The translations under genes and the position numbers were made by a program. Under the pieces are notes generated by a model. That model saw only the letters and a list, made by a program, of their open reading frames with translations, did not search any database and was not told the origin of the DNA. A stretch of DNA of 63,997 nucleotides, filler included, from Elsinoe ampelina (lineage: Eukaryota): assembly GCA_010093995.1 (NCBI GenBank). It is 4 parts of 3 records of this genome, joined end to end, with 100 filler letters (N's around TTAATTAATTAA, not from the genome) between each part and the next. Parts side by side here need not be neighbours in the genome. Positions count along the whole stretch, not along the records: positions 28,171 to 58,606 come from ML992501.1; 3 more parts are not named here. The stretch is one strand, 5' to 3'. This document shows positions 29,788 through 61,210 of this stretch, piece by piece (the stretch's first letter is position 1; the number at the start of each line of letters is the position of its first letter).

Positions 29788-30387
29788 ATGTCCACCACCC
29801 TCTCCCCCACCGCCATGGCCACGCAAGCCCAAGCGCGCATCGAGCTCGCCTCAAAGGCCCCTCTCCACCCCTCGGACGTGCTTTAACGACCACGCTAACC
29901 CATCGCAGTACAGAGATCGAGTCCGCGAGGTGATCAAGCAGGGCAAAGCCGCAAGTGCGTAAAACACCTTCATGCCCTCAGTGACACTGTGACGGCGGGT
30001 TGAGGGAGGGGGATACTACCAGCTCTGAACACATGAGTGGTAGGACTTGACTGATGCTTGACAGCCGCCCTCGAGGGTGGGGTGCTAATGAGCTGCAGCT
30101 GACGCGATGATCGCGGAGGCGATGGAGCGGTATGAGGGTGGGGTTGTGCCGCCTCCTGCGTCGAACAGAGGAGGATTGGTATTGCCGCATCAGCAGGTGT
30201 TGGGACAGCTCGAGGGGGTGGAGGAGGCGAAGAGGGAGAGGAAGATTAAGGTGAGTCTGTGCGCGGAGAGGGAAGGGGAGGGTACCGATGTTTGTAGCCT
30301 TTGCCTAAGAGGAAGAGGGCGGGGGGAGATGCTGATGAGGAGATGGCGAAGATTACGAAGAGGTTGAAGATTGGAGACCTTGCTTGA
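29788..30387 (+). CDS. Small hypothetical protein (multi-exon, basic NLS-like PLPKRKR tail)
   Basis: Splice-like signals join MSTTLSPT..., YRDRVREVIKQGK, DAMIAEAMERYEGG... and PLPKRKRAGGDADEEM...*. The first putative intron is implausibly short (31 nt), so the model is uncertain. Confidence 0.4.
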
Positions 30388-37626: not shown

Positions 37627-38256
37627 TCAGGCCATCATCTTTCCGTCCATCTTTTGCCTCTCCCGCTCCAACGCAAAGACCTTCCTGCTCATCTCCAATA
37701 CCGACTCAAATCCCTCTCGTCCTTTAATCGCGTTCTGCCTGAAGCGATCGACTGTGAACTCCTCGATACTGTTCTTGATCTTCTGCCATCCTCCGCATAA
37801 CGCGATGATTTTGGCGTGTTGATCAAACACCGTCTTGCCATTTGGGTTCTCAGGACACGGACGATAGACGACCGTCTCCCGTACTGATAGCAGGTCGGAC
37901 CAGGTCATGTTCATGCTGCACATTGTGACCTTCTTCGCCTTCGGATCGACATAGGATGTCTCGTAGACGTGTGATACTTCTTTGCCGCCGAGGAACGAGT
38001 TGAGCCAGGCTGGTGCCGATTGCTTGCAAGTGATGAGTCGTTCAGTTCGGAGCTGGATAGACTGTCAGATATGCCGCTATCATATTTAATAAGCTCAACC
38101 TACAATTCCTGTATTCGGATCCACATGCCGATTTAATGTGTCCACCGCGATAACATGTGTGCTCTTATCATTCCATGGCGAATACTTCTGCCAATTCGCT
38201 GTCGAAACAAAGTCCCATGAGTAGTTGAACTCATGCTGTGACGCGAAAATCTTCAT
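37627..38256 (-). CDS. UPS2: PRELI/MSF1 mitochondrial lipid-transfer protein
   Basis: MKIFASQHEFNYSWDFVSTANWQKYSPWNDKSTHVIAVDTL...GI|LRTERLITCKQSAP...FRQNAIKGREGFESVL; one intron. Confidence 0.92.
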
Positions 38257-39923
38257 CGCTAATTTGCTGGTCGTGTGAGGGTCGATATCGAGCCCGGGTG
38301 AAGTCGTAAGAACTTTTCCAGAGCACGCGAGTGAATCAGGATCGGACGTTGAACGAACGTTGATTTATAGACTGAAGGCTGGACTCGCTGGATAAAGATC
38401 GTGAGTCGTGAAACAGCGCTGATAGAGAGTGTCGAAAGACAGAACTGACTGGTTGAAGTTGAGGCGGAAGAAATTCGCCATGGAGCGTGTCGAAATGGGT
38501 GAAGGGATCTCCGCCTTCGGGATCTGGAAGCAAATCTATTGGATGCAATCGCCAGATTTCCTTGGCCACCACGCTTTGGATCCGATCCGGCCCGAGCGCA
38601 TCTGGGCGTTTCGCGAACCATTTGTGGTTTCTGTTTCTTGACATGTGATGGTCAAAGGTCGTGTGCTTCCATACCAACCACGCGTCGCGACTCAAAACAC
38701 GCACCGAGTCATCTAGGATATCCACCAAGACGTGTCGGTATCTTCGCGTTCGCTCTGATTACTCTCGGATGCTATGCCAACAACCAAACATATTCAGGTC
38801 TGCAGCTGAGCGTCACAGTGGAGACATTTGCGAGTAATCAAAACAATGGAAGCAAGTATATGAACCAGCGTAGGTACAGTTTGGAACCCACCAAATGCAT
38901 GCAAAGGAGATCTTGTTCTTTTCATTCAATACAATACCTACCAGAACACACCTAAATAACCTCTCTGCGCGTCCATACCATGGTTTCTCAAAAGCTGTTG
39001 CTCTTCTCGCGCTATCTCAAGCTGGTACAAGCTCGACAACATGGTCAAGACAGGTCAGGACTTGGTCACTCTCAGCGGTAAGTCATCCGACGAAGCAGAC
39101 GGTACGTTCCTGATATCGTTCAGGAGGTTCTACCTACAACTACACAACCCGACGCTTGGTTAAAGCTTGCCATGAATCAGACACCGTCATTGAGGCAAAT
39201 GCAGGGTTGGTTCGTACACTATCACAACCGGTAACATATACTGAACATGCCAGTGATTCCGTCACGAGTGATACGGCTTGGTGCTCAAGTATTGGCGTCG
39301 GTCTTCTCAAGACCAGAGAGATTGAACATACTCAAGGCATTGTGAACGAAATGACCATGGAATGACATGAGGAACACATGAAAGATAGAAACCCGAAACG
39401 TGGATATACGACTTACAGGTAGATGATCATACATTAACGATGAACATGAATGAGGTCAAATTTTGGAGCTGAGCACCGTCTGCCAGCATTTCCGTACCCT
39501 CCACAGTCGCGGTTCAACGCAATTGGGACTGACCGTCTTGTTAAAAGTGCCCCAAAACGGCCCCGCGCAATGGTGAAAAAGCCCTGCAAAGTTCCAAAGT
39601 GTTCGACACTGACTCTCCCCTCTTACCTCCCACGGTTACTTGACGTGAGAAATGCACAATCATCACGTCTGCCAATTCCTACATGTCTTGCAGAACGGAA
39701 GACAATTCTCTCCGACTCTCAAAAAACCTCGGACTCCGGGACCTGACAGACCTCCGTCTTTGCATGAGCTCCATCTTTCCATCGTCACGGGCGAGGAGTG
39801 ATGATGCAAGAATGCTGCAAGCAGACGCCTGTCCCGTTCATCCTCCATTGCTCTTTGGACATGATTGACAGGCAAACGACTATTGATTAATAGGTCAAGT
39901 ACCTTTCGCATCCATAAGTACTC

Positions 39924-40655
39924 ATGTCTTCCTCAAGAATCGCCCGTCGCATCCTCCGTTCCAACCTCCCAATTTGCACAAGAACAGCTCCAAGTACCAG
40001 ACACATCTCCCACAGAACCTTCACCACCACCCGCACCTTCAACATGCCCGGAGACGTCAAAGACATCGGTCCAGACGCCGATCCCTCGGTCGTCAAGCAA
40101 TACGACCGCGACACCCCAACAGACAAGCAAATCAGCGACTTCTTCGGCCTGGCCGACTCCCTCAAAACATGCCTCATGACCACGCAACGCCCCAACATCG
40201 GCCCCGTCTCCCGCGCCATGGCCATCGCCAAACGTGACGGACCGGACTTCCTCTTCCTCGCCAACCGCAACAGCAGCAAATTCAAAGACCTCGACCACGA
40301 CAAGACGGTCCAGCTCACATTCCAGGACAGCTCGAGCCAGAACTGGGCCAGCGTCACAGGCAAAGCCACGACCACCAGCAACTCGGACCCGAGGATCAAG
40401 GAGCTCAACAACCCTTTCGCGTCGGCGTGGTTCGGCGATCTCGGCGATGGAGTGCATACGGGCAAGACGGAAGACCCGAGGATGTCGTTGATTGAGGTCA
40501 AGGCGGATTATATTACTTATTGGATCAGTACGAGCACCAAGCTGGGGTTCCTCAAGGAGATTGCAGAGGCGAATTTGACGGGCAAGGTGGCTACTACGGG
40601 GCTTACGAGGGAGCTGAAGGGGAGTGAGATTGAGCAGGCGAGGAAGCAGAAGTGA
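39924..40655 (+). CDS. bli-3: Bli-3-like FMN-binding split-barrel (pyridoxamine-phosphate-oxidase-like / general stress) protein
   Basis: CLMTT...PVSRAMA, FLFLAN..S.K, WASVTGKA, AWFGDLGDGVHTG..EDPR and GKVA..G..REL. Possible mitochondrial presequence. Confidence 0.85.
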   Translation: MSSSRIARRILRSNLPICTRTAPSTRHISHRTFTTTRTFNMPGDVKDIGPDADPSVVKQYDRDTPTDKQISDFFGLADSLKTCLMTTQRPNIGPVSRAMAIAKRDGPDFLFLANRNSSKFKDLDHDKTVQLTFQDSSSQNWASVTGKATTTSNSDPRIKELNNPFASAWFGDLGDGVHTGKTEDPRMSLIEVKADYITYWISTSTKLGFLKEIAEANLTGKVATTGLTRELKGSEIEQARKQK

Positions 40656-40919
40656 CTAGGTCATGGGGAGGAGGGTGTGGTAGGGAAGGCCAAGGGGTGG
40701 GTGGCGAGTAAGTTGTGAGAGCTAAAATCAGCCTGTAGCAATAATACAAGGTCCAGAAGGGCTATGACCATAGTTCTGATTGTTTCAACCTTCTATTGCG
40801 GTTATCTGCCAGGCTCTACGCGCTGTGTTGCTCCCGGTCTACTAGACTACAGGTCCTCCTTGCTGGGTCATGCAATTTTCGTTCCGTCAAAGTGGCCCCT
40901 ACAGCCTCTGCTTCTCCAG

Positions 40920-41757
40920 TCATGAGTAGTAATGTGACATCTCCAAGCCAGCTCTCTTGAAGCCGCACTTGACGTAGAATCCCTCATTCGCTTCCGAACA
41001 GTCCAGTATGCTCTGTACCATGTCAGCTATCAGGTTTCTCTTCACGACGGGCAGATCACTGACCTTGTAGCACCCGACCTTCTCTGCCACATAGTCTAGC
41101 GCTTGTATTATCCTCAACCCGAGCTTCTTCCCTTGTTGGTCCTTGGCGACTGCAATATCTTCAATGTGTCCTACGAGGCCGAGTTCGTGTATGCTGGGAG
41201 GTGATCAGTATCAGTCCCATCTTGATGTACACTCAGCAAGCATCTCTCCCGCTGCCCGCGGAAACTCTTCTGCACACCTCTCCCCTGCTCCTCCTGCACC
41301 TCCTGCTCCACCTCCATGCCCTCCCTACCTCAGCTTCCCTCTCCCCCACCCACGTCCTCCTGCTTGATTCCAAAATCAAACATCCTCCTCGTGTCCCTCC
41401 TAATCCCCCCCTGCTCACGCCCGACCCACCCTCCCAATTCTCCAAACCAAAGGAAAGAGCAACTTACAACTTCCTCTCGACAACCAACGCCCCCGTCCCC
41501 ACCACCTTCTCCTCCCCATCCAATATAACCAAAACATGATACCCCACCCCGCTCCCCGTCTGACTACTGCTCATCTCATCGAACCTCTTCCCGAATGCCT
41601 CCTCGCTGATGTCCCCCACCGTCGTCAGAACCCGGAGCACGTCGAGGAATCCCGTCGAGTAGTCGCTTTTTTGGAGGGGGCGGATTGTGTAGCCTTCTGG
41701 GAGGGCGGAGGAGACTTGGGGTGAGATGAGGGAGGGGGGGAAGAGGGGGGGAGACAT
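40920..41757 (-). CDS. GNA1: Glucosamine-6-phosphate N-acetyltransferase, 3 exons
   Basis: LPEGYTIRPL, FLDVLRVLTTVG, LVVERK|FIHELGLVGHIEDIAVAKDQQGKKLG and GCYK|SILDCSEANEGFYVKCG. Confidence 0.96.
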
Positions 41758-42175
41758 TTTCTTTGTCGAGTGGGCGGGGGTTGGAGGTAAGGCGGTGGTG
41801 GATGGGTGGGTGGTGGAATTGGAGGCGGATTCGGCAGGGGTGTATGAGGTGGATTGCGGGTTGTGTAATCGGTGTTTGTGGAAGTCGAGGAAGGAGTTGC
41901 AGAGCTGTTGAGGTTGACGGAGCTGTGTGTCGGTGAGATGGACAGCGTGCATGACAAAATTGTGGACCCTGGAGGCTTGCCCCGCTGCCCCTCCACCACC
42001 TCTCGACAGATAGTCCTGCGGCACGTTGCGATTGTGAGCCAGGCGTGTTTCATTGAGTAGCTATCAGACAAATGTCAAGGACGTCGGCGTGGCTAAGAGC
42101 AAGTTGGCTATGCACAACACGATGGGTTATGCTCGAAGGGCGTCTATTGATCATAATTCATAGCTATATACAAGC

Positions 42176-44322
42176 TTAGTACCCAAAGGCTTCAGTATGC
42201 AGGTAGATACCCTGCGCTCCTGTGCCTTTGTGTACCGCCCTCTCATCACTGAGCTGCACCATAGTATTTCGGACATCGTTGATCAGTCCTTGAGGACCGC
42301 AGGCCAAAACAGCACTCTCGCCCAATGCCTGCTCCAAAGACGTCCTCATAATATCCTTGAGCATGGGTCGTCCCGAGTACAGGTTGATCTCGGGATGCAG
42401 TAATGACATTTCCGTGGCTGGCTTCTTGACGTCGTCGAAACTACTCGAGTCGTCGCCACTGCCAGGCGCTTCGACGCCACAGCAGTTGCAAGTGCAGAGC
42501 GGCGCCGAAGTGTCGTTCTCGTCAATGTCGCCTCGGCAACAGCAGACTCGGTGTCCACGGGGCTGCTCCTCGATGATCTCGATGGTGGTCTTCTCATCCT
42601 TCCCTGAGACTGAAACATCCTCACTGATCGGAGCAGCACAAGGGGTGATCTCATCTTTTTCCTGAGGACCGACATGGAGGCTCTTCCGGAATGAAGCAAG
42701 CGTGGAGTTGTGTTTGGTTGTGAACTCATCGTCGCAAGTGACGTAAAGGCTAATGCTGACCTGAACATCCTTGCCAGAGAGTCGTACCTGCTTGGTGTCC
42801 TCAATGACTCTGCTGAGCTGTTGTCTGAACCATTCGAGTTGTTTGCCCGATTTGACGACCCAGACGTACTTGACATGCCTGGTCACGACTTGAGCTCCGG
42901 ATGTCCATCGATGAACGATATCGCGAAGAAGTGGCGTTGTAAACGTCGCACCAGTACTACCAGTGAACAAAACTACACTGTCGAATTGCTCGAGAGGTCG
43001 GACTCGTCCATACGGCCCCTCGATGGCTACGTGTTTCGTAGGCTTATATTCGGGATCGCGCTGTCGGATGCGTCTGTCGTGGAGCGACATGTAACGTACT
43101 GTCGCGCCATTTCGACGTTGCACGATGAATTCCATCTTGTCATCGCTCGGAATAGAAGAGATGGTGAATGGATGAGCCTGAAATGGCGCCAAGGCATGGC
43201 ACGACAGGAAGACGTGTTGACCAGGCCGCCACTTGCACGGTGGCTCAAACATTGTGATCTTCGTGCAGCCTCCCGGTAGTGTTTCGAATTGTGCTCTACT
43301 CCCCCAAAGATCGCGGTGACTACCCGATGCATCTGGCTGAGCATGGAATTTGAATAGGTTGTTGTAAAGGTAGTAGCCACCACGGAGGAGACGATCGAAG
43401 AAGAAGTAGCCGACACAAATCCAAACAAACACTCGATGTTGTTCCGGAATATGGAGGTAGATCAACGTGATCAGCGCGGTGAAGGAGACAATGTGCTGTA
43501 TCACAAAGATTTCGTATGCCCAGCCCCGGATCGGTGTCATGGAGCTGAACACGATCCATGCTAAAACAGCCCATGCCGCAATACCTCGTTGAGTGATCGG
43601 GTCGGATTTGACCTTGCGGGGAATGTACTTGTACCGATCCCAGTCAGAGAACCAGAAGCCCATATGAATGGTAGCCGAGATGAACAGCACCCGCGACACC
43701 CATCTGTGCAGCCAATTGATTCTCTCGTAGGAAGTGCCTGCGAGGGCACCAAGTATGTTCCGCTTCCCCGCCAGGAGAAAGATCAATGGTAATTGAGCCA
43801 CCGTGATATGCCCTGTCCGGTATCCAATATCTTGCCAGTCGAACCTGCTTCTTGTATTGTAACCATAGAAGGACAATACCAGTATCGTGACCAAATTCGC
43901 GAGGACCAGGCTGACCTTGCCAATGGTTGGAACTTGACCGATAGTCCGTGATGGTATATTGTAAGCGAATGCGGGCGCGTTGGAGACCTCTCGTAGTAAT
44001 GCTGTCGCGGACGCCATGCCGACTGCAAGGACAGACGTAGGCTTTGCTGGTGTCGAACTCGCTGAGCGTAATCTGAGCGCGTAAGTCTCTATTCCTGCTC
44101 ATGACCGACATACACTGCTTACCTCTGCCATCGCAAGAACTTTGTGTAGAGGTTGATCATGGTAAAGGCTCCGATGACTGCTCCCACGGCAGCCCAGTAC
44201 ATTTGTTGAAGGTAATCGTTGTCCGGTATGCCATCTCCACCACCAGATCCCATCCCGCTCATACCACTCATGCTGCTGGAGCTCGAAGAGCTGCCGCTCA
44301 TGGAGTGCCCGCTATGTGACAT
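42176..44322 (-). CDS. Ferric/cupric reductase (FRE/NOX-type flavocytochrome), 2 exons, Met/His/Ser-rich N-terminus
   Basis: Heme His motifs (WLHRW, TIHMG, IQHIV, YLHIP), FAD-binding WRPGQH and HPFTISS, NADPH-binding EGPYG and GSTGATF, CGP, and a C-terminal HTEAFGY. Intron at ~44072-44121. Confidence 0.95.
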
Positions 44323-44918
44323 GCTGGCGATTGAGCGACCCCTCTGCCGTTCAGTGGAGTTGATCGAAATAGAGACTCTTGTGGCGCAAGTAAAGATCAG
44401 AAATGAAGAACCACTCGTGGCGCTGACATTACCCTAGCGGCTTACCCACGAGGTCTGTGTAAAAAGCAGCACATGGCAGCGAGTTTCACCAAACCAACGG
44501 TACTCCGTTTGAGCCGCAGGATAATATCAAAGTTCCTTGTCCATGAGGGTCTCGGAGGTCTAGCGTGGCGGAAGTGGATTCGCTTTATTCTCGGCGGTGC
44601 CAAATTTGGCTGTTTTGGGAAGCTGGCGTTGAATTGAGCAAGTTTCCAAAGTCCTCGGACTCGACGACCAAAGACAATCACCGGCTCGGTGGCCACTCTG
44701 CCGGTCATCAGGGTAGCAATGTCTGACGAAAGCCACTCCTTTCAACCTCAATCTCACTTCTCATCACCAGCTGGAGGCAGAATAACTAGAGTCATCAACC
44801 TGCTTAGCCTGCAATAATTGCCGCCAAAGCCCTCACACCGAACGGTTGACTTCAGACAAAGCCCACAGGGCAAGCTGAACACGACAAGTCTGTCAAAACC
44901 ACAGCATTACCCTTCAAA

Positions 44919-45512
44919 ATGGAGCGAAGACATTCACAAGACTCCATGTCGATGGCCATGTACTTCACCACAGCACAAGATACGCCTCTCTGGTCGCAGA
45001 CTTGGACACCGACCTCGACTGGAGCGTACGCAGGCACATGCATCTTCTTAATTGTTCTTGCCATCATTTCGAGAGGACTCGCTGCTTTCAGACAACGATT
45101 GGAGGTCAAATGGCACGACGCAGCTATCAACCGCCGGTATATTGTCGTTGCTGGTGGTAGTAATGAAGGTCAGCTCAGCAATCAATTGAAGGAGGAAGGC
45201 GAGGGAGGTGTCCTGACTGCTCGGGGAATCGACGAGAATGTGCAAGTCATCAAGACCAAGGCAAGGTCACGGGAAGGCACTCCATGGAGAGTATCGACAG
45301 ATCTTCCGCGTGCTGGTATCTTCACTGTTCAGGCTGGAGTCGGCTATCTCCTGTGAGTACGCTCAAGTGCAAGAATGGTTCTTAAGCTAACATTCTATAG
45401 CATGTTGGCAGTTATGACATTCAACGTGGGATACTTCTTGTCGATACTGGTTGGTTTGTTCGTGGGTGAAGTTGCTCTTGGACGCTTTACCTCACACTAC
45501 GTTGAGCATTAG
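44919..45512 (+). CDS. Ctr-family copper transporter, 2 exons
   Basis: N-terminal MSMAMYF, TPLWS..WTP, YAGTCIFL, GYLL|MLAVMTFNVGYF (MxxxM), GLFVG (GxxxG) and a C-terminal His. Confidence 0.95.
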
Positions 45513-45944
45513 CGAGGGTGTAGACACTGGGCTCAAGCATGACTATAGAAATGACCAAATACCAATAATAACTACCACTCGTAACTTATCTGATGTGAGC
45601 TGATTGCACGCCTGGATCTTCCTGATCCAAGGGATCCACAGGCACAAACGACAATTGTGGGGTAAAACTCGCTCAAACTCCGCAAGCGCCTCCTGCTCAG
45701 ACCCCTTTTCGCCTATTTTCCGCCCAATTGCCCTGCATTGATCGACGAGCTTGGCCTCAGAAAATTGATGAAACGCTGGAATCCAGAAACACATCTGGCT
45801 CGCCTGCCGCGTTGGGCCGGCTACTGGTAATTTGAGGCGTTTGAATCACCGTGATGGTTTGTACAAAAGGAATGCTTTGCCCTCCCAATCGCGTGTCTGT
45901 AACACCACTATCTCCCCACCAATCCAACACCTCAACCAACAAAC

Positions 45945-46720
45945 ATGAAGCAATTCGCCGTTCTCGCGGGCCTGGCGCCCCTCGCTGCAGCTCACTGGGA
46001 GTTGGTTTATCCAGCACAGCGTCAAACTGGCAATGAAGACACCATGCCCTCATTCCCTTGTGGTGGTGTCGACACAGTCTCCAGCAACAGGACTCGCTTT
46101 CCAATCAGTGGCGCTCCGATCCAATTGAATATGGGGCACACAGAGTACAATGTGCAGGTCCTCATGGCTCTCGGAAACGAGCCAGGCAGCGCCTTCAACT
46201 ACGTCTTGGTGCCCACCTTCACCGAAGAAGGACCGGATAACTTCTGCATTGGCGCGGGCACTCTGCAATTCCCCGAAGGTCTCAACATCACAGACGGCAC
46301 CAATGCTACTATCCAAGTAGTCACCAACGGCGACAGTGGCGGAGGCCTTTATAACGTGAGACATATCAATGTGGCAACAAGCACCTCGCTGACATGACAC
46401 AGTGTGCCGACGTTACGTTCACCTCCACCCCTCTGACCACCGAAGAATATGGCCGCAACTGCCAGAACAGCACTGGTGTCGAGACTCGTCCCCTCGAAGG
46501 TGCCGCCCGCAATGCCAACGAAACCTCTTCGGGTCACAGCCACGGAGGCGACGACGATGATGACGACAGCAGCAGCGGATCAGCCAACTCTACCACCAAC
46601 AGCACTAGTTCCAGCGCCGGCTCCACCACCTCTTCCAGCAGCGGTCTTGCTTCGCAGGCTACTTTGGCTTCCTGGGGTATGGCTGCCATGGGTATTGCGG
46701 CTGGTGTCATGGCTCTGTAA
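45945..46720 (+). CDS. GPI-anchored Bim1/X325-like (LPMO-like His-brace) copper-binding protein, 2 exons
   Basis: The signal peptide ends AAA, leaving a mature His1 (HWELVYP..R). Also FPCGG, a second His in MGHTE, NATIQVVTNGD..GGLYN|CADVTF (intron 46356-46402), a Ser/Thr linker and a hydrophobic GPI signal. Confidence 0.88.
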
Positions 46721-47521: not shown

Positions 47522-48748
47522 ATGGCAGAGACCAAAGACATCTTCATCATAGGCGGCTCCTACGCTGCCGTCAACACAGCTCACTACATCCTCAAATTCA
47601 TCTTCCCAACCCTCAGCACACCCCATCGCCTCGTCCTCGTCTCTCCCACCTCCTCACTCTACCACCGCATCGCCGCCCCCCGCGCCATCCTCTCCCCCGA
47701 ACTCTACCCCGAAGAAAAAGCCTTCTACCCAATCGCTCCAGCTTTCTCGCAGTACCCTGCCAGCCAATTCGAATTCGTCCTCGGCACCGCCACATCCATA
47801 GACTCCTCTTCTCAAACCCTCCACCTCTCCGTCTCCTCTCAACCCACCTCCCGCTCATACCACGCCCTCATCCTCGCCACCGGCGCCCGCAGCCAAGACC
47901 CCACCCTCTCCTCCCAAGGCGGCCCCCAAGACGAAATCACCTCCGCCCTCACCACCATCCAAACCCAGCTCAAAACCGCCCACACCGTCATCGTCGGCGG
48001 CGGCGGCCCCGCGGGCGTCGAAGCAGCCAGCGAAATCGGGGAATACCTCAACGGCAAACCAGGCTGGTTCGGGAGCAAGCCACGCAAGGTCGAGATCCGC
48101 CTCATCACAGGCGGGGACCAGCTCCTCCCTGTCCTGCGCCCTGCACTGGGGAAGCAAGCGGAGAACATGATCCGGGATCTAGGCGTGGAGACGACGTACA
48201 AGACACGTATCGAGGGGACGGAAAAGTTGGCGGACGGCAGGACGAGGGTCAAGCTTGACAATGGGGAGACGGTGGATGCGGATGTGTATATTAATGCGAT
48301 CGGGACGGTGCCGATGACGGGGTACGTGCCTGGTAGTTGGTTGGACGGGAAGAAGAGGGTGAAGGTGAGTAAGGCGTTGAGGGTTGAGGGGGCGGAGAGG
48401 GTGTATGCTGTTGGAGACGTGCATGATCAGACGAGAGGGGGCATGTTGGATTTGTACGACAGTATTCCCGTGTTGGCGACGAATTTGAAGACGGATTTGC
48501 TCGAGGCGGAGGGGAGGAAGAGGACGCATGAGGATAGGTTGTTTGAGGGGAAGAAGGATGAGTCGCAGGTGGTCACGATTGGGCAGAGTAAAGGCGTGGG
48601 CGCGTTTGGAGGGATAAAGTTGCCGAGTGTCGTGATTTGGGGCCTGAAGGGGAGGGATTACATGTCTGGTATGACCAAGTCGGCGATCGAGGGGAACAAG
48701 TGGAAGAAGGAGGTGGCGTGGAAGGCGACGCCGCTCAAGGCTGCGTAG
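47522..48748 (+). CDS. AIF/AMID(FSP1)-like FAD-dependent pyridine nucleotide oxidoreductase
   Basis: IIGGSYAA, LILATGA, IVGGGGPAGVEAASEI, VYAVGDV and KGRDY. Confidence 0.92.
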   Translation: MAETKDIFIIGGSYAAVNTAHYILKFIFPTLSTPHRLVLVSPTSSLYHRIAAPRAILSPELYPEEKAFYPIAPAFSQYPASQFEFVLGTATSIDSSSQTLHLSVSSQPTSRSYHALILATGARSQDPTLSSQGGPQDEITSALTTIQTQLKTAHTVIVGGGGPAGVEAASEIGEYLNGKPGWFGSKPRKVEIRLITGGDQLLPVLRPALGKQAENMIRDLGVETTYKTRIEGTEKLADGRTRVKLDNGETVDADVYINAIGTVPMTGYVPGSWLDGKKRVKVSKALRVEGAERVYAVGDVHDQTRGGMLDLYDSIPVLATNLKTDLLEAEGRKRTHEDRLFEGKKDESQVVTIGQSKGVGAFGGIKLPSVVIWGLKGRDYMSGMTKSAIEGNKWKKEVAWKATPLKAA

Positions 48749-51789: not shown

Positions 51790-54145
51790 AGCCTCTATAA
51801 GCTTAACAAAGAGTAATCTTTAAGGAGTAATAACTTTATGAATTAGTCCCCTTTTAAGCTGTAAATTAGTAGAGGATAAAGCTAAGGTTAAGCGCTTTTA
51901 ATTAATATAGATATTAATGAATTTTATTATAAGTTTATATAAGGTTAGTAAAACTTCTTAAAACACTTATCTCGAACATAGAGTAGTTTATTACACCTTA
52001 AATAAATTCAATTAGTCTTATATATATACTCTTTAACGCCTTAAATATAAAGCTAGTAGTAGTAATAGTAATATATAATAGATAAGGCTATAGTTATTTA
52101 GTAACTATAAGGCTAGAGGAGGCGCTCTAGTAGTAGCTTAGTATTCTTAGTAATATAGCCTCGGTAGTGTAACTTCTTTAAATTGCTAACTATAACCTCT
52201 CTAGCTCTTACTCTTCTTTATATTATATTAGGAGGTTACTTAGCATCTATAAGCCTTACTCCTTTAACAAGTAAAGCTTAAGCTAATTAATAGTAAAAGA
52301 GGTAGTAAATAGTATAGTAGCTATACTTAACTCCGTCGCTAAAGAGCTAAGTAAATATCTAAAAGGCGTTAATAATAGAGCACTCTAATAGCTAGAAGAA
52401 GAGTAGTATCTAATTGTATAAGACTCTTAATTAGAGTAAATATAATACTCTATATTAATTAGTAATATCTACCGCTTCTATAAAGTAATTATATCTAACT
52501 ACTACTACTAGTAATTAAAGTACCTTCTCTATAGCCTTACTCTATATACTTTACACTTGCTCTTTAAACTATCTATCTTAATAGTATATAGCCGGCCGCT
52601 ACTAGATAGCCTTAATAAGCTTATAAGGCTTATAAAGAGTTATAAGGAAGTATACTAGGAGGCGGTCTTACTATAAAATTAAGTAAACTAAGTTATCTAT
52701 CTAGAGAGGTAAAGTAGTAGTATATAAGGTTATTTAGGAGCTTAAGATTATACTTAATCTGCCCTATTTAAGCTATAACTTCTTCTTATTAATCCGGCTA
52801 TACTCTTTTAGATAGAACTTCGAGGTTAGCCTTATAGTACTAGTAGCGCTAATACTAAGTCTTTAGAGGCTAATAAAGAGTAGTATATTAGAGAAGAGAT
52901 TATTATAGAATAGAGAGAACTAGTAGCAAATCCTTAGTAGTTGCTATACTAAGTAAATTACTACTTATAAGGTTTATAATAATTTAATATTACTTACCTC
53001 TAAGGGCTTAGTTACTAGAAGGCTATAATATAAAGTAGAGCGACTTATAAAGAGAAATATAAAGGTATAGCTACATTTATAGAGTAATAATATCTTATAT
53101 CCTTATATAATTAGCTTATTCTTTATTAGGTAAGTATACTTTAATCTTCTAGTAAATTGTACTATAGTCTTATTAATAGTAACCTCTATAGCTAGTATAA
53201 TATATAACCTCTAGCGCTCTCTAAGATACTTCGCTAACTTCTTTACCTTATTAAACATAGACTACTATTATAGTAAATTTACTAGAAGAAGATCGTTATA
53301 GATATAAAAGAAGCGCTTTAACTACTAGAAGTAATTAAGTAAGAAATATTAACTAATAAGGTGTTAAGGCTTCTATATATTACAACTCTAGTACTCTATA
53401 ACTAGCGACTATTAGTATAGGCTAAAGTAGATAATTTACACTAGCTAGATTATTAGTTTACTCTTCGAAGTTAGTTTCTACTTCCTTAGCCTCTTTATAG
53501 ATTTAGTTAGTACTCTAGCACCTCTTAAAGCTACGTATTAGTTAGTGTAATTAGTAAGATACTTAAAGAGCTAGTCTATAAAGAAGAGCTAGAATAGGAG
53601 GAGTAGCTAGTTATCTTTATCCTCTACTTCTAAGCCTTTAGGTAGGTGTAATTCTCTATCTTTATAATTAATCTAAATTAGCTTAAAGGCTAGCTTATTA
53701 TCTAGTAGATTATTTGTCCTTATAACCTCTAGTACTAGTATAGCCTCCTTAGCCTTCTCTTTCTTCTCTAAGGCTCTAACTTCTTTATATATCTCTAAGT
53801 TAACCTTATTCTCTACCTTAGAGCTAGTATAATCCTCTATAGTTATACGCTAGAAGGCACTACTAGGAGAATTATAAGAGCTTAGAAGTAGTAGAGGAGT
53901 AGAGGCGAACTATATATAATAGCCCTTATTAGTAGTAGCTATAGCAATTCTTATTACACCTTTAAAAGCTTAATATTATAAAGTTATAGCCTTTTCTACA
54001 TCTTTATAGCACTAATAGTAGTAAAGAATATTAAATTCATAGCTAAGTCTACTAATTACTTCGATTTTAGTAAGTATTACTAAGAAATTAGAGTCGGCTA
54101 TGTCTAGCGCTAAAACTAGCTAAAAATTTTTACTAGATTAGGGGA
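51790..54145 (-). mobile_element. RIP-destroyed piggyBac DNA transposon (DDD transposase relic); ends approximate
   Basis: Reversing RIP on the minus strand gives IDETMVQFTGRS..KNKP..GYK (~53100-53177), DNLFS (~52890-52910), LGIGATGTVR (~52830-52860) and YN.FMGAVDIADQYR..W.PLFFWLL (~52385-52495), i.e. all three catalytic-Asp motifs in order. Confidence 0.85.
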
Positions 54146-57100
54146 TGTTATAACTAGCAAATTAGATTAAGAGACGTATATTTTATTTAGAGAATTATAA
54201 TAACTAATTTATCTACTATATATGTACTAACTTATTAGTGCTAGTTCTTTAGTACTAGAGAAGCTATACTAGCCTTCTATTATAATACTCTCTCTCTAGT
54301 ATAGATTATTAAAGCTAGAGAACTATTCTATTATATATAAGTAAAGTAATTAGCTTATTACTTTATCTCTTTATAATTGCTTATAATTGTTAGTGTTAGC
54401 TAATTATTAGTAAGAATTTACTATTAGTTTAGCTTATAATTACTAGTAATAATAGTAACTATTAACAATAGCTAGGTAGCTATTGTTTATATAAATAGAC
54501 TAGCTTATAAGTCTTAATTAAAGAGATATAAGTATCTAGCTAGCCTCTTTATAATTTCTCCTTTCTTTATTATACTTATAGTAGTAGCCTTTTCTTTTAT
54601 ATAACACTTTTACCTTCTTACTATACTATATTAATAACACTTATAACATAAGCGCTATAGTATAGTAATAGCTAGGCATTAGTAGCATTACTACTAGTGC
54701 TAGTGCTCTAAGTAGTCTACTAGGTAGTAGAGGTAGTAGTAAGAAGAGAAATTCTCTATTAAGGTTACCTAGTACTTTTAATGTTAATTATAATACTACT
54801 ATAAGACTAATTACTTATCTTAATACTCTTAGTAAGTAGCTATAAAGCATTAATAGCACAAGCTAACATTAATAGCCTAATTAACCTAGACTTTAACTTA
54901 ATAGTTAGCCGATATAATCTAGAATACTCTCCTTAGGCTTAGGATAATTAGTTATTATAACTATACTAACTTATATTCTATCTAGAGGTCTATAGTAGTC
55001 TAGGCCTTTAGTACCTATAGTATATACCTAGTAGTTACTAATTCTATTCTAGTTAAGGATCTAACTAAGTAAGTTAACTTTACTAGATCTACTAACTACT
55101 CTACTACTTTAATAGCTTCTAGTGCTACTAGTAGAGTAGTTTACTATAGCACTAATTACTATACTAAGTATTAGGGATCTAACTCTAGTAATAATTAGAG
55201 TAAGGGTAGGGGTAGCAAGTTTAGTAAGTATATTACTTTGCCTAGTTAGCTTAATAAGGCCTATACTTGCTATACTTATAGCAACTAATATACTAGATGT
55301 TCCTTAGCTAACTATACTCTAACTCTAAGGCCTATTAGCTCTCCTAAACCTATAAGGACCCTAAGTAGCTTAAGGGTTATTACCTAGTCTATTCTATATA
55401 GCCTAATACACCTACTAATAGAGCTTCTAAGGTCTGTCTCTTTTAGTAGTACTTTGCCTTAGAAGTTCTTACTAAGGGCCTATATACTAGAAGTATTATT
55501 AGATGTAGTTAATACTTTAATAACTTATACTAACTCTTACTACTTTATAGTAGTCTCTATAAACTTTATAGATCCTACTAACCTAACTGCTACTAAGGTT
55601 TATAACTTAGCTACTATAGTAATAAACTATATAATAGAGCTTATAAGAATTATAGCTACTAGCTACTCTAGTTAGCTTTCTCCTATTTATGCCTTTATAC
55701 TAAGCCTAGCGCTAATAAGGTATAGTAGGTCTAGATCTAATACTTCTATAAGGTCTACTAGTAGTAATAAGAGAAGAGGTTCTCCTTCTATAAAGAAGTA
55801 ATTAAAGGTAGGAAATAGATAAGGATTATTAAAGGTAATAATAGTACTAAGTAGTAGATATAGCTTAGGCATAAGTAGCTAGTAATAGAGTTATAATAGC
55901 TTTTCCTTTCTCTCTTCTTAATAATAAAGTAATTTACTTTAAGCTTTAGACAAATAAGATAGCTTAATAAGTAGTAGTAGTATAAATAATATACTTAAAA
56001 TAATAATATATATAAAATCTAAATAAGTATATAGCGTAGATATACACTAAGTAATTAGCCTTTACTAATTAATTAAGGATCTTATTAGGAGACTTAGGCT
56101 TTATAAGTATATTAGCTAATTACTAAGTTATATTAATATACTTAAGCTTAATTACTCTAAGTTTATACTACTCTCTATAGTAGTAATTCCTTAGATTAAT
56201 ATACTTAGATCTCCTTAAGTTAGTATAATCTCTTATAAGTTTAATAGCTAATTTATTATTAATAAAGACTATAGTTAGACTAAGGTAGATATTAGTAAGT
56301 AGCCTAAGTTTAATAATAAAGTTTCTTAACTAATTAATCTCTCTATAGGTCTTAGTAAGGGTAAGGTATTTAGCCTTAGTGCTTAATAATATAATAATCT
56401 TCTATAGCCTTAACTTCTAAATAACTAGTACACTAAGTATATAAATAATAGTACTAGATATAGATCTTGTAGTTAATCTATCTCTAGTAAAGTCTAAGTT
56501 AGAGTAGGCTTTAATTATATTAGCTAATAGTTTATTAGTCTTCCTAAAGGTAAAGCCCTTTATAATAGTCCTATTAATATACCTCTAGATCTATTTAGCT
56601 ATAACTACATAAGCTATAGTTAGATTCTAAAGGAACCTAGCTAGGTAATTAGTAGTATAGCTAATATTAGGCCTTATATTATTAGCTAGATATTATAATT
56701 TACTAATAATTCTATTAAATGTCTTATAGTACTAAGTATTAACTTAGCTATTAGTTAGTTTATAGAGTTAATTAATAGGATACTTTATAGTTCTTACTTA
56801 GTAAAGATTATAACCTTTAAGCTTCTCCTTAAAGTAGTGTAATTACTTAATCTTAATTAAGTCCTTAGTTCTATAAAGTTAAACACTAAGGAAGAGGTTT
56901 AAGTTTATAATCTTTATTAGAAACTTAAGATAAAGATCTTTAACTAGCTTATCTATATACTTCTACCTAGTAGTAATAATCCTAAAGTTATTAATATATA
57001 TAAGAACTATATAATACTTATTAATAAAGAGACAAGTATTACTATAGAATCTAATAAAACTAAGTAATAGAAGTGCCTTAACTATAGTGTTATACTAGAG

Positions 57101-58606
57101 AGTAGTAGCTTACTTAAGCCTATATAAGCCCTTTATAAGAATAATAAGCTTGTCCTATTTACTAGAAATTAGTACGCCTTCTAGGCAGGAGATATAGTTC
57201 TTAATATTAATATCTAGTCTAAGGAATATAGTAACTATATCTACTATTATAATAACCTAGTTATAATAAAGAGTATATACAAGGATTACTCTCCTAGTTT
57301 TAGCTCTTAGTATTAGTATAAAGGTTCTAACAAAGTTAATATCTACTCTTTAAGTAAAGCTCCTTATAGTCTAATAAGCCTTATATCTTTTAACTTTGCT
57401 ATTTATAAGCCTCTTAGTCTTAAAGACCTATTTGCCTATTATTAGCCTAACACCTCTTAGTGCCTATAATTTCTTAATAATTAAAAAGGTTTTAGAGTTA
57501 GTTAGAGCTTTCTACTCTATCTCTATTATAGCTTACTAGTAATAACCTTTAGGAGAGAATAGTATATCTCTTACTATTTATAGGTCTAGCTTAAAATTAA
57601 TAGCTATAGATCTAATAATCTTACTATTATTAAGTTTTTTATAATTAATCTAGCGATATGTTTTAAGAGACCTTCTAATAGTTTCTTATAGTAAGAGAGA
57701 TCTTTTCCTTTTACTAGTTAGAGGTTATATATTAAATAATATAATAAGAAAGTTAACATCCTTATTCTATATATATATTAGTAGTTAATTAACATTAACT
57801 ATAGGATCAAAGGTTAAATATAGTTTACTAATAACTTTAGGTAGTAGTATTATAAGGTCTTTACTCTTATAGTTAGTAATAACAAGTTACTTCCTCTATT
57901 TATTAATAGGTTAAGGATTCTGTTTAGGATATTAGTATTACTCTCTCTATTCTTTAATAGGGGTAGATAATTGTTATTTATATCTAAGGATTAAAGGGTA
58001 GTTAGATGTTAGTTATTTAGCTTAAGGTTATTTAGCCTAGGTAGTTTATAGATTCTTATAACTAAAGGGTAGTTAATTATAGCTATAGTCTTAATTATAA
58101 TCGCTACTAAATGTCCGCTCCCCTTAAAGCTATAAAGCCTTAGGTTGTTATATCTATAGGATATATAGCTATTTAATGACTTATATTACTTAGTCTTTAT
58201 AGACTATGTCCTTATTAAATATTACATAGAGTAATATAATAATCTTTCCCTTCTAGGCTTACTAAGTATAATACTAATAAGGTATCTAGATAAGGTAATT
58301 AGTTATTAAGTCATTCTATATACTAACATACTAACTAAGTAGTACTTTAGCTTAGAATTTATATAATTTAGAAACATATTAGTTATAGATATAGGCTCTA
58401 TAGCTAAAGCGTCTAATATAAGTTAATAAGACTAGCCTATTATTATTAAGAAGATTCTTTCTTAGCTCTTATATAGAGATCTTCTTAGTTTTAGTATAGG
58501 TAATTCTATTACTAATATAGATTATAAACTTTATAACTATATACTAGAGTTTAAGAGGTACTCTATAATTAATAAAGATATATCTTATTCTAAGAATAAT
58601 TACTTT
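54146..58606 (-). mobile_element. RIP-inactivated Ty1/copia copy: 3' LTR (54146-54287), PPT, long 3' region, RNase H and RT
   Basis: The reverse complement matches the LTR and 3' region at 28171-29181, and the RT/RNase H relic matches 62600-63997. Confidence 0.92.
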
Positions 58607-58706
58607 NNNNNNNNNNNNNNNNNNNNNNNNNNNNNNNNNNNNNNNNNNNNTTAATTAATTAANNNNNNNNNNNNNNNNNNNNNNNNNNNNNNNNNNNNNN
58701 NNNNNN

Positions 58707-61110
58707 AACTATATAAGCTATAGTTAGATTCTAAAGGAACCTAGCTAGGTAATTAGTAGCATAGCTAATATTACGCCTTATATTGTTAGCTAGATATTAT
58801 AATTCACTAATAATTCTATTAAATGTCTTATAGTACTAAGTATTAACTTAGCTATTAGTTAGTTTATAGAGTTAATTAATAGAATACTTTATAGTTCTTA
58901 CTTAGTAAAGATTATAATCTTTAAGCTTCTCCTTTAAGTAGTATAATTACTTAATCTTAATTAAGTTCTTAGTTCTATAAAGTTAAACACTAAGGAAGAG
59001 GTTTAAGTTTATAATCTTTATTAGAAACTTAAGATAAAGATCTTTAACTAGCTTATCTATATGCTTCTACCTAGTAGTAATAATCCTAAAGTTATTAACA
59101 TATATAAGAACTATATAATACTTGTTAATAAAGAGACAGGCATTACTATAGAATCTAATAAAACTAAGTAATAGAAGTGCCTTAACTATAGCGTTATACT
59201 AGAGGGCAGCAGCTTACTTAAGCCTATATAAGCCCTTTATAAGAACAATAAGCTTGTCCTATTTGCTAGGAATTAGTACGCCTTCTAAGTAGGAGATATA
59301 GTTCTTAATATTAATGTCTAGTCTAAGGAATATAGTAACTATATCTACTATTATAATAACCTAGTTATAATAAAGAGCATATACAAGAATTACTCTCCTA
59401 GTTTTAGCTCTTAGTATTAGTATAAAGGTTCTAACAAAGTTAATATCTGCTCTTTAAGTAAAGCTCCTTATAGTCTAATAAGCCTTATATCTTTTAACTT
59501 TACTATTAGTAAGCCTCTTAGTCTTAAAGACCTATTTGCCTATTATTAGCCTAACACCTCTTAGTGCCTAAGATTTCTTAATAATTAAAAAGGTTTTAGA
59601 GTTAGTTAGAGCCTTCTACTCTACCTCTATTATAGCTTACTAGTAATAACCTTTAGGAGAGAATAGTATATCTCTTACTANNNNNNNNNNAGCTATAGAT
59701 TTAATAATCTTACTATTATTAAGTTTCTTATAATTAATCTAGTAATATGTTCTAAGGGACCTTCTAATAGTTTCTTATAGTAAGAGAGATCTCTTCCTTT
59801 TACTAGTTAGAGGTTATATATTAAATAGTATAATAAGGAAGTTAATATCCTTATTCTATATATATATTAGTAGTTAATTAACATTAACTATAGGATTAAA
59901 GGTTAAATATAGTTCACTAATAACTTTAGGTAGTAGTGTTATAAGGTCTTTACCTTTATAATTAGTAACATTAAGTTACTTCCCTTGTTTATTAATAGGT
60001 TAAAGATCTAGTTTAGGATGTTAGTATTGCTCCTTCTATTCTTTAATAGGGGTAGATAATTATTATTTATATCTAGGGATAGAAGGGTAGTTAGATGTTA
60101 GTTGTTTAACTTAAGGTTATTTAGCCTAAGTAGTTTATAGATTCTTATAACTAAAGGGTAGTTAGTTATAGCTATAGCCTTAATTATAATTACTACTAAA
60201 TGTCTACTCCCCCTAAAGCTATAAAGCCTTAGGTTGTTATACCTATAGGATATATAGCTATTTAATGACTTATATTGCCTAGTCTTTATAGACTATATTC
60301 TTATTAAATGTTATATAGGGTAATATAATAATCTTTCCCTTCTAGGCTTACTAAGCATAATACTAATAGAGTATTTAGATAAGGTAATTAGTTGTTAAGT
60401 TATTCTATATACTAATATACTAACTAAGTAGTACTCTAGCTTAGAATTTGTATAATTTAGAAACATGTTAGTTATAGATATAGGCTCTATAGCTAAAGCG
60501 TCTAATGTAAGTTAATAAGACTAGTCTATTATTATTAAGAAGATCCTTTCTAAGCTCTTATATAGGGATCTTCTTAGTTTTAGTGTAGGTAATTCTATTA
60601 CTAATGTAAATTATAAACTCTATAACTATATACTAGAGTTTAAGGGGTACTCTATAATTAACAAAGATGTACCTTGTTCTAAGAATAACTACTTTATTAG
60701 TGGCCTTAGATTTACTATTCTAGTATTAAGTATTAGGTGTAGAGATGTTCTATCTCTACTCTTTAAGATAAATAGCTATTGCTAGTTTATAGTTCCTAAA
60801 TTTACCTCCTCTATTAGAGATAAAGATAAATAAAAGCTTATTATAGGCTATTTTATTCCTTATATAGATAAGTTTAATTACTACTAGTATATTACTCTTA
60901 AGAAAGAGAATAGTAATAAACTTATATTTACTTTTACTATATATTATAAGGAGAAGGTATTTATAGCCCTTACTTAACTATAGTTTAATAGGACTAATAA
61001 GGTCTAGATAGAGCTTATCTAGTAAGTATTTTAGTATATCCCTTAGTTCCCTTAACACTACTCTCTATGTCTTTAATATAGTATATAGTTTATAGTAGCT
61101 AAGATCTAAT
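58707..61110 (-). mobile_element. Second copia pol fragment (RT to integrase), RIP-mutated
   Basis: Repeats ~56605-58606 with mostly transition differences and extends further toward the integrase. Confidence 0.9.
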
Positions 61111-61210
61111 NNNNNNNNNNNNNNNNNNNNNNNNNNNNNNNNNNNNNNNNNNNNTTAATTAATTAANNNNNNNNNNNNNNNNNNNNNNNNNNNNNNNNNN
61201 NNNNNNNNNN

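What the first reader, a model, noticed from the sequence alone, without database searches (positions are those of the whole stretch)
42176..46720. Three-gene copper acquisition cluster: reductase, Ctr importer and Bim1/X325-like cuproprotein
Seen: FRE and CTR are divergent across about 600 bp, and a GPI-anchored His1 protein follows CTR after about 430 bp. All three carry extra metal-ligand patches (FRE MSHSGHSM..MSGMSGM and CCC..CTCNCC; CTR MSMAM; Bim1-like GHSHGGDDDDDD). Known: Ctr imports Cu(I), FRE enzymes reduce Cu(II), and Cryptococcus Bim1 is an LPMO-like Cu(II)-binding surface protein acting with Ctr1. Inference: a physically clustered capture-reduce-import relay in an ascomycete, which would give genomic-context evidence for the function of X325-like proteins and name the partner reductase. 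I cannot confirm whether this clustering has been reported.
Basis: partly seen in the sequence, partly recalled or inferred. Interest (0 to 1): 0.82.

Follow-up and report, generated by a model that had tools for sequence, protein, structure and literature searches.

The report
Conserved fungal copper-uptake gene trio
A plant-infecting fungus keeps three copper genes side by side (a metal reductase, a copper importer and a copper-binding surface protein); the trio is real and widespread in moulds, and the same neighbours were described in Aspergillus in 2008, though the surface protein was not then recognised as a copper binder.

Summary
Confirmed. The window (its Ctr and Bim1-like proteins are identical to Elsinoe ampelina records) holds three intact, spliced genes: a 698-aa FRE reductase, a divergent 181-aa Ctr1/CtrA2-type importer and a 242-aa X325/Bim1-like protein (mature His1, His49, loop Asp; fold matches LaX325). 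The linkage is not unique: 16 of 20 informative non-redundant metagenome loci of this clade carry all three genes, across at least Dothideomycetes and Eurotiomycetes plus two unassigned lineages, one with an inversion, while flanks turn over. The Mac1 site TGCTCA is in 14 of 14 trimmed FRE-CTR spacers (24 seen, 7.7 expected). It is the orthologue of Aspergillus fumigatus Afu6g02800-02820, described as adjacent, co-induced and deleted together in 2008; FRE-CTR pairs under Mac1 are also published. Not found in ten literature searches: that Afu6g02800 (and Coccidioides/Histoplasma ELI-Ag1) is Bim1/X325, or that the trio is a conserved module. Best reading: a Mac1-controlled copper-starvation uptake module (0.8); direct hand-over between the proteins is untested. 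Several lineages break the trio, and the Bim1 His/Asp linker patch is not conserved. The scan found this cluster before in a lichen fungus (e1-7652920).

The parts
42176..44322 (-). FRE-family metalloreductase, 698 aa, Fre10/Afu6g02820 type; exons 44322-44123 and 44072-42176, intron 44073-44122; Met/His-rich N-terminus, haem-type His pairs H189/H203 and H260/H274, FAD and NADPH domains, Cys-rich insert at about residues 574-597
   Evidence: link to Afu6g02820 through its published qPCR oligos matching the L033 FRE stretch
44635..44645 (-). Mac1/CuRE-like site AAACtTGCTCA in the shared FRE-CTR spacer (core TGCTCA 44635-44640); the only AAACNTGCTCA in the 64-kb window
   Evidence: core motif from F. 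oxysporum ChIP-seq
44919..45512 (+). Ctr copper importer, 181 aa, Ctr1/CtrA2 type; intron 45353-45400; M10/M12/M14 ahead of TM1, M146-xxx-M150, G163-xxx-G167
45694..45699 (+). second TGCTCA, upstream of the Bim1-like gene; lacks the AAAC extension, so weaker
45945..46720 (+). X325/Bim1-like histidine-brace protein, 242 aa; intron 46356-46402; signal peptide 1-16, His17 (mature His1), His65 (His49), Asp130 on a Gly-rich loop, Ser/Thr linker, hydrophobic C-terminal GPI-type signal

Best explanation
An old, vertically inherited copper-starvation uptake module of filamentous ascomycetes. At low copper a Mac1-type factor binds TGCTCA in the shared FRE-CTR spacer and upstream of the Bim1-like gene (motif enrichment shown here; binding inferred from orthologues). 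The GPI-anchored X325 protein holds Cu(II) at the cell surface with His1, His49 and a loop Asp (residues and fold shown; binding inferred from LaX325/Bim1). The FRE passes electrons from cytosolic NADPH through FAD and two haems to surface Cu(II) (domains shown; substrate inferred). The Ctr1-type trimer imports Cu(I) (established for the orthologue CtrA2). Most likely the X325 protein is a local copper reservoir that releases Cu(II) to the Met-rich ends of FRE and Ctr, with or without lasting protein contact; that last step is pure inference.
For: Domains and motifs intact, genes spliced. Profile match to LaX325 at E 7.5e-19 with His1 and His49 in register. The alignment-based model has 137 residues at pLDDT 90 or more, and its top four Foldseek hits are LaX325 chains, E about 1e-10, target TM 0.79-0.82. 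Trio in 16 of 20 informative locus groups, kept after an inversion in L046-48. FRE, CTR and BIM trees give the same main groups, while flanking genes are shared mostly within groups. TGCTCA: 24 seen vs 7.7 expected, in 14 of 14 trimmed FRE-CTR spacers, rank 3 of 2021 hexamers behind two TATA repeats; 20 vs 8.1 upstream of BIM, 12 of 15; 0 of 500 shuffles reach either count. Literature: CtrA2 is a high-affinity importer and MacA target, down 4.85-fold in copper. F. oxysporum fre10, grouped with Afu6g02820, is a Mac1 ChIP target. In P. destructans a Bim1-like gene and the next-numbered reductase gene both rise with BCS (logFC 1.91 and 1.52) and fall with copper. The A. fumigatus trio rises together with ctrC, the Fre9 orthologue and Mn-SOD, a set that resembles the Mac1 regulon (my inference).
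Against: No copper-dependent expression data for this organism. In the window alone one TGCTCA per spacer is not above background (0.7 per kb). The 15 spacer sets are related, so the shuffle test overstates significance, and the AAAC extension was read off the same spacers. 4 of 20 informative groups lack CTR and FRE within the DNA held (L017, L020, L026, L040). F. oxysporum ctr1a is reported as unclustered, P. destructans CTR genes carry distant locus tags, and C. immitis ELI-Ag1 and its co-induced copper transporter are five tags apart. In A. fumigatus under copper excess Afu6g02820 is higher in wild type than in the aceA mutant, which does not fit a pure starvation gene. Histoplasma Mac1 depletion did not change CTR1 or CTR2 (which of these is the orthologue was not tested). 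Cu(II)-Bim1 is hardly reduced by ascorbate and loses copper with H2O2, which its authors read as an off-switch. Other X325 proteins have developmental phenotypes.
Confidence: 0.8

Rival explanations
1. Co-regulated but not a relay: FRE and Ctr do the uptake, while the X325 protein buffers copper in the wall or serves wall structure, metallation of secreted enzymes or development, and is linked only through shared Mac1 control.
For: Bim1 is not redox-active and sheds copper with H2O2. C. neoformans cbi1 mutants have wall defects. X325 homologues affect morphogenesis. The gene can stand without CTR and FRE and still keep a TGCTCA upstream (L017, L020).
Against: C. neoformans Bim1 is reported to interact with Ctr1 and to be needed at low copper. 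The clustered Ctr is of that Ctr1 type by the F. oxysporum alignment and tree. None of 6 long-flank groups of the distant X325 subfamily sits near CTR or FRE (L059 has only 1.2 kb upstream).
Confidence: 0.3
2. An oxidative-stress module: the trio is switched on by superoxide or host oxidants, and its job is to protect against them, copper supply to Cu/Zn-SOD being only one route.
For: The A. fumigatus trio was induced by normal but not CGD neutrophils, and the triple deletion failed to grow on menadione.
Against: No added H2O2 or neutrophil sensitivity. macA loss also lowers SOD activity and radical resistance, so the phenotype follows from copper shortage. The conserved spacer motif is the Mac1 site.
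Confidence: 0.1
3. Reductive iron uptake support: FRE reduces Fe(III) and Ctr supplies copper for the ferroxidase.
For: FRE family membership; Mac1 also touches iron genes in A. fumigatus.
Against: The triple deletion grew normally on iron-limited medium (stated as data not shown). The FRE N-terminus is Met-rich in all loci printed. I did not look for iron permease or ferroxidase genes in the flanks by profile; none stood out among shared flanking ORFs.
Confidence: 0.05
4. Chance persistence of ancestral gene order with no selection on the linkage.
For: The trees are congruent, as plain inheritance predicts. A few flanking genes are shared across groups (L034/L037 with L049; L020 with L049). 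The trio is broken in several lineages.
Against: No flanking gene is shared by more than two of the four main groups, whereas the trio is in all four. It survives an inversion (L046-48; convergent CTR in L019). All three genes are copper-related and the spacers share a copper-regulator motif.
Confidence: 0.05

Closest known systems
Aspergillus fumigatus Afu6g02800 (GPI protein) - Afu6g02810 (ctrA2) - Afu6g02820 (metalloreductase), Sugui et al. 2008, PMC2481287
   Same: Same three neighbours in the same locus-tag order. Afu6g02800 (P0289, EAL85759.1) is PF20238 at E 1.5e-37 and 47.5% identical to the window protein over 183 columns. CtrA2 matches the window Ctr type. Afu6g02820 oligos match the clustered FRE of L033.
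   Different: The passages and section read treat it as an iron/copper and oxidative-stress locus with a GPI protein of unknown kind; they show no low-copper test, no Bim1/X325 assignment and no survey of conservation. Gene orientation in A. fumigatus was not seen directly.
Cryptococcus neoformans Bim1/Cbi1 with Ctr1 (Cuf1 regulon); LaX325 (PDB 6IBH/6IBI/6IBJ)
   Same: Family, fold, His1/His49/loop-Asp site, GPI-type tail, Ctr1-type partner.
   Different: Basidiomycete. No linkage to Ctr or FRE genes is mentioned in the passages read; no partner reductase named. The Asp loop is one residue longer here, and the position holds His or Glu in 30 of 129 homologues.
Divergent FRE-CTR pairs under Mac1: F. 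oxysporum fre9/ctr3 and fre12/ctr1b (PMC11563359); A. nidulans freC/ctrA, 110 of 127 species (PMC7705104)
   Same: Head-to-head reductase and importer sharing a promoter with TGCTCA sites.
   Different: Other paralogues: Ctr3-type importers, or Fre9/Fre12 reductases. The third gene beside fre9/ctr3 is a SAM-domain gene. No Bim1-like gene is named (0 occurrences of Bim1 in the F. oxysporum main text).
Pseudogymnoascus destructans CTR/BLP/MRed model (PMC12113139; bioRxiv 10.64898/2026.03.13.711597)
   Same: Proposes the same capture-reduce-import logic in an ascomycete from co-induction.
   Different: Based on expression, not linkage. BLP2 (VC83_03095) and a reductase (VC83_03096) have consecutive tags, which the passages read do not remark on; the CTR genes lie elsewhere. 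Their orthology to this clade was not tested.

Membership tests
X325 / Bim1-like (PF20238) | Profile match above the curated cut-off | tested here: met
   121.5 bits against a cut-off of 27, profile positions 2-140 of 140
X325 / Bim1-like (PF20238) | Mature protein starts with His after a signal peptide | tested here: met
   AAA|H at 16/17, aligned with His1 of the LaX325 chain; invariant in the 18-row alignment. Cleavage itself not predicted by a tool or measured.
X325 / Bim1-like (PF20238) | Second His and an Asp on a Gly-rich loop as further copper ligands | tested here: met
   His65 (mature 49) aligns with LaX325 His49; Asp130 lies on the same loop as LaX325 Asp122, with a one-residue gap. 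Columns: H 123 of 129; D/H/E 93/16/14 of 129. Ligand set as described.
X325 / Bim1-like (PF20238) | LPMO-like beta-sandwich closest to LaX325, not to AA9/10/11 | tested here: met
   LaX325 at E 4e-11 to 1.4e-10; next hit AA11 at E 4.8e-4
X325 / Bim1-like (PF20238) | C-terminal GPI anchor | tested here: inconclusive
   Ser/Thr linker and hydrophobic C-terminus by inspection; homologues are annotated as GPI-anchored; no predictor run
X325 / Bim1-like (PF20238) | Binds Cu(II), no polysaccharide-cleaving activity | not testable with these tools
   Shown for Bim1 and LaX325, not for this protein
Ctr1/CtrA2-type copper importer (PF04145) | Met ahead of TM1, MxxxM in TM2, GxxxG in TM3, three hydrophobic segments | tested here: met
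   M12/M14, M146-M150, G163-G167; 146 bits; sequence type matches CtrA2/Ctr1a rows by eye. The motif list is established knowledge, recalled.
Ctr1/CtrA2-type copper importer (PF04145) | Cu(I) import at the plasma membrane | not testable with these tools
   Known for CtrA2
FRE metalloreductase | Ferric-reductase membrane domain with two His pairs, FAD and NADPH domains | tested here: met
   PF01794, PF08022, PF08030; H189/H203 and H260/H274
FRE metalloreductase | Cu(II) rather than Fe(III) as substrate | not testable with these tools
   Inferred from context, Met-rich N-terminus and regulation of orthologues
Mac1 regulon | TGCTCA site in the promoters | tested here: met
   Present in the window and enriched across orthologous spacers; not enriched in the window taken alone
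Mac1 regulon | Induction at low copper that depends on Mac1 | not testable with these tools
   No condition data for the runs laid
Afu6g02800-02820 cluster orthologues | Each gene orthologous and adjacent | tested here: met
   BIM by sequence and tree; CTR by published alignment; FRE only through short oligos and Eurotiales loci L029/L033; adjacency in A. fumigatus
True LPMO (AA9/AA10/AA11) | No third protein ligand in the copper plane; LPMO family profile | tested here: not met
   Only PF20238 hit; loop Asp present; LPMO folds far weaker

The most novel reading that the evidence does not exclude
The clustered X325 clade is the dedicated third component of an ancestral Pezizomycotina copper-uptake machine in which the Fre10/Afu6g02820-type reductase unloads copper from the histidine brace (by direct electron transfer or by a local burst of H2O2/superoxide), catches it on its own Met-rich N-terminus and hands Cu(I) to Ctr1/CtrA2, with the conserved cytosolic Cys cluster as a copper feedback switch. 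This would name the unknown cupric reductase of A. fumigatus and give the antigen ELI-Ag1 a function as a copper-scavenging histidine-brace protein.
Probability: 0.3. Interest if true: 0.78.

Novelty: new member of a known kind. Interest (0 to 1): 0.5.

Why it matters
How Bim1 gives up its copper, and from where it gets it, is stated as open, and a 2019 review draws the A. fumigatus cupric reductase as unknown. The conserved trio names one reductase and one importer as candidates and points to a triple-deletion strain made in 2008 whose low-copper growth is not reported in the parts read. It also separates a copper-uptake clade of X325 proteins from an unlinked subfamily, and suggests a role for a vaccine antigen named only by how it was found. 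It is a useful synthesis rather than a new kind of system: every part, the FRE-CTR pairing and the A. fumigatus adjacency are in print, and UniRef names already carry the BIM1-like label for many homologues.

Tried and rejected
No whole genome is held for this window. Viral contigs gave no relative. The single-sequence structure model was unusable, mean pLDDT 36.6; it was redone with a 129-row alignment. Complex prediction of the Bim1-like domain (17-176) with a Ctr trimer: no answer, score 0.00 in two runs, alignments not used, controls not folded; no evidence either way. A FRE-Bim1 prediction was not run (one job only). No run is on record as RNA and no conditions are given, so copper regulation could not be read; contig depth was not used to rank genes. 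No contig covers 44544-44674, where the TGCTCA site lies, and none spans two genes; this is at most a weak hint. The first motif ranking was topped by Met-codon words from coding ends; it was repeated on trimmed spacers, L033 dropped as too short. A Fisher test on linked against unlinked loci is not relied on, because the loci are related. Accession order is not always gene order: E. batatas tags KVT40_002876 and _003500 share a contig length but are far apart, and several A. melanogenum pairs differ by 3 to 84 numbers. The Bim1-like His/Asp linker patch was rejected as a core part (17 of 89). The class of L046-48 and of L018/L038/L045/L049 could not be fixed, for lack of named relatives. F. 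oxysporum FOXG_02393 and the P. destructans genes could not be fetched. The original Bim1 paper is not held; the original X325 paper and the A. fumigatus Mac1 RNA-seq papers were not read; 5 of 17 F. oxysporum supplements were not searched. Any of these may mention the linkage. Look-ups of earlier findings by place and by sequence were empty.
Full report
Observation. Splice enumeration gave a minus-strand FRE from ATG 44322 to stop 42176, a plus-strand CTR at 44919-45512 (181 aa) and a plus-strand Bim1-like gene at 45945-46720 (242 aa), with spacers of 596 and 432 bp. Contigs from four public runs skip 44073-44122 and 45353-45400 in 4 of 4 runs and 46356-46402 in 3 of 4, which fixes FRE at 698 aa. 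The runs are only guessed to be RNA and carry no conditions. Pfam assigns PF01794, PF08022 and PF08030 to FRE, PF04145 to CTR and PF20238 to the third gene, all above cut-off. The CTR is 100% identical to an Elsinoe ampelina record and the third protein equals P0138 of the same species.

The Bim1-like protein. His17 follows AAA. A profile of 18 homologues finds one PDB sequence, LaX325 (E 7.5e-19), with His1 and His49 in register and LaX325 Asp122 on the same Gly-rich loop as Asp130 here, one gap apart. In a 129-row alignment His65 is kept in 123 rows and position 130 is Asp, His or Glu in 93, 16 and 14; 91 of these rows came from a pattern-filtered list and the rest were picked by coverage. 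The model from that alignment has 137 residues at pLDDT 90 or more; Foldseek ranks four LaX325 chains first (E 4e-11 to 1.4e-10) and true LPMOs from E 4.8e-4 down. The GHSHGGD patch is not a family trait: 17 of 89 full-length homologues have two or more His in the linker.

CTR and FRE. The CTR has Met ahead of TM1, MxxxM and GxxxG and matches by eye the CtrA2/Ctr1a rows of a published alignment (PMC11563359, supplement 3); that paper's tree lists CtrA2 with the Ctr1 group (supplement 4). FRE has His pairs 189/203 and 260/274. Its Met-rich N-terminus is seen in all 14 loci printed and the CCC...CxC insert in 13 of 14. The insert lies within the NADPH-domain match, so I infer it is cytosolic; an outside N-terminus is my inference from a seven-helix reading, of which the hydropathy scan found five.

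Linkage. One scan of metagenome contigs gave 74 loci, 51 groups at 95% DNA identity. Of 38 groups in the closer clade, 20 have enough flank to judge: 16 carry FRE, CTR and BIM (two, L018 and L038, with only the FRE 5' end at the contig edge; L053 with fragmented frames) and 4 carry neither partner in the DNA held (L017, L020, L026, L040; L020 has 1.1 kb downstream only). Five more short groups show CTR beside BIM; 13 are too short. Of 13 groups in a distant subfamily (about 30% identity) 6 have a long flank and none shows a partner. The usual order is the window's; L046-48 have CTR and FRE on the other side, still head to head. Consecutive accession numbers for CTR and BIM occur in E. ampelina, E. 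australis (two assemblies), Sphaceloma murrayae and seven Aureobasidium melanogenum pairs, with exceptions noted under Tried and rejected. Trees of BIM (41 rows; L053 left out as short), FRE and CTR (14 rows each) give a Dothideomycete group, a Eurotiomycete group, an unassigned group (L045, L049, and L018, L038 in the BIM tree) and a long-branch L046. Among 21 stretches compared, flanking genes are shared mostly within these groups, with two cross-group cases.

Regulation. The Mac1 core TGCTCA was taken from F. oxysporum ChIP-seq (PMC11563359, passages). In trimmed FRE-CTR spacers it occurs 24 times against 7.7 expected, in 14 of 14, ranking third of 2021 hexamers behind two TATA repeats found in one or two spacers; upstream of BIM 20 against 8.1, in 12 of 15; no shuffle of 500 reached either count. 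The extended form AAACNTGCTCA is in 8 of 15 and 5 of 15 spacers, absent from the other 240 kb, and its only copy in the window is at 44635-44645; this extension was read from the same spacers, so that count is circular. The spacers are related, and in the window alone the hexamer is at background level.

What is known. Sugui et al. 2008 (PMC2481287; passages and section 19) report Afu6g02800 (GPI protein), Afu6g02810 and Afu6g02820 as adjacent, higher with normal than CGD neutrophils, and deleted together: menadione-sensitive, not H2O2- or neutrophil-sensitive, normal on low iron. The Afu6g02800 protein is PF20238 and 47.5% identical to the window protein; the paper's oligos for Afu6g02820 translate to words resembling the clustered FRE of L033. 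CtrA2 is a MacA-controlled high-affinity importer and the A. fumigatus cupric reductase is drawn as unknown (PMC6514546, passages). Divergent FRE-CTR pairs are described in F. oxysporum and A. nidulans (PMC7705104; passages and section 19). A CTR/BLP/reductase model is proposed for P. destructans (PMC12113139: abstract, passages, supplement rows; bioRxiv 10.64898/2026.03.13.711597, passages). Bim1 biology comes from PMC9258870 (introduction and passages), PMC7924993 (passages) and PMC7529816 (passages). ELI-Ag1 of Coccidioides and Histoplasma is PF20238 with all three ligands; in C. immitis it and a copper transporter five tags away both rise about 7.1 log2 in young spherules (PMC8150946, passages and table rows). 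Ten searches (listings only, some cut at 20-30 rows) showed no paper tying Afu6g02800 or ELI-Ag1 to Bim1/X325 or describing the trio as conserved; the two original 2020 papers were not read.

Results against. The trio is broken in 4 of 20 groups and, by locus tags, in F. oxysporum, P. destructans and C. immitis. Afu6g02820 depends partly on AceA under copper excess (PMC8425704, passages). Histoplasma Mac1 controls CTR3 but not CTR1 or CTR2 (PMC9040751, passages). Cu(II)-Bim1 resists ascorbate and sheds copper with H2O2. X325 homologues have developmental roles (PMC9695133, passages; PMC9550227, one passage).

Mechanism and verdict. Shown here: intact spliced genes, family membership, ligand residues, fold, wide linkage, motif enrichment. 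Taken from orthologues: Cu(I) import, Mac1 control, Cu(II) binding. Inferred: that this FRE reduces copper and that the X325 protein feeds it. I put a copper-starvation uptake module at 0.8 and a direct three-protein relay at about 0.3; the first rival overlaps with the best reading, since it differs only in the X325 protein's role. The locus is a new member of a cluster already described in A. fumigatus; the added value is the identification of its third gene, its breadth and its testable partners. An earlier scan note on a lichen fungus (e1-7652920) reached the same view; I had found the 2008 paper before reading it. Interest 0.5.

Noticed in passing
window 26001-30000 and 52001-63997: AT-rich blocks (GC 0.24-0.38) with high TpA/ApT (1.6-2.2) and low (CpA+TpG)/(ApC+GpT), the pattern of repeat-induced point mutation on old repeats; the cluster lies about 5 kb from the larger block.
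   Followed up: partly
window 47522-48748 (+): Pyr_redox_2 flavoprotein (AIF/AMID-like by my recall) just downstream of the Bim1-like gene; also beside it in L008, L011, L012 and 7 kb away in L017, but not in other groups.
   Followed up: partly
window about 40900-41955 (-): Gene resembling glucosamine-6-phosphate N-acetyltransferase (label recalled; the exon scanned had no Pfam hit) next to FRE; also near FRE in L011/L012.
   Followed up: partly
window about 42530-42600 (-), FRE residues about 574-597: Cys-rich insert CCC...D(E/D)...CxC(x)C inside the NADPH domain, kept in 13 of 14 clustered FREs down to the long-branch L046; metallothionein-like, role unexplained.
   Followed up: partly
window 44574-44579: A second hexamer, GTGGAT, is enriched in FRE-CTR spacers (17 copies, 10 of 14, z 5.4) and present here; factor unknown.
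   Followed up: no
L056, L059, L061-L069: Distant X325 subfamily with His at the third-ligand position (LALHG, LAVHG, AARHG) and no CTR or FRE nearby; His also replaces Asp in L040, L046 and a Capronia protein.
   Followed up: partly
L017 and L020: Bim1-like gene keeps flanking genes seen at clustered loci and an AAAC-type TGCTCA upstream, but CTR and FRE are gone from the DNA held: likely secondary break-up.
   Followed up: partly
L053:465-7087: FRE and Bim1-like matches come in several pieces and shifted frames; decay or assembly error.
   Followed up: no
P0255, P0268 (not in window): Expression library immunization antigen 1 of Coccidioides and Histoplasma is a PF20238 protein with His1, second His and loop Asp.
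   Followed up: partly
F. oxysporum FOXG_02393 (paper): Uncharacterised Mac1 target divergent from fre10, the Afu6g02820-type reductase; predicted here to be the Bim1-like gene, sequence not seen.
   Followed up: no
window 1390-37182: Other genes by Pfam: sugar transporter, GH127, GH16, DUF7928 with GT2, protein kinase, guanylate kinase, thiolase-like protein; also PRELI (37630-38064) and a pyridoxamine-oxidase-like gene (39918-40655). None is copper-related.
   Followed up: no
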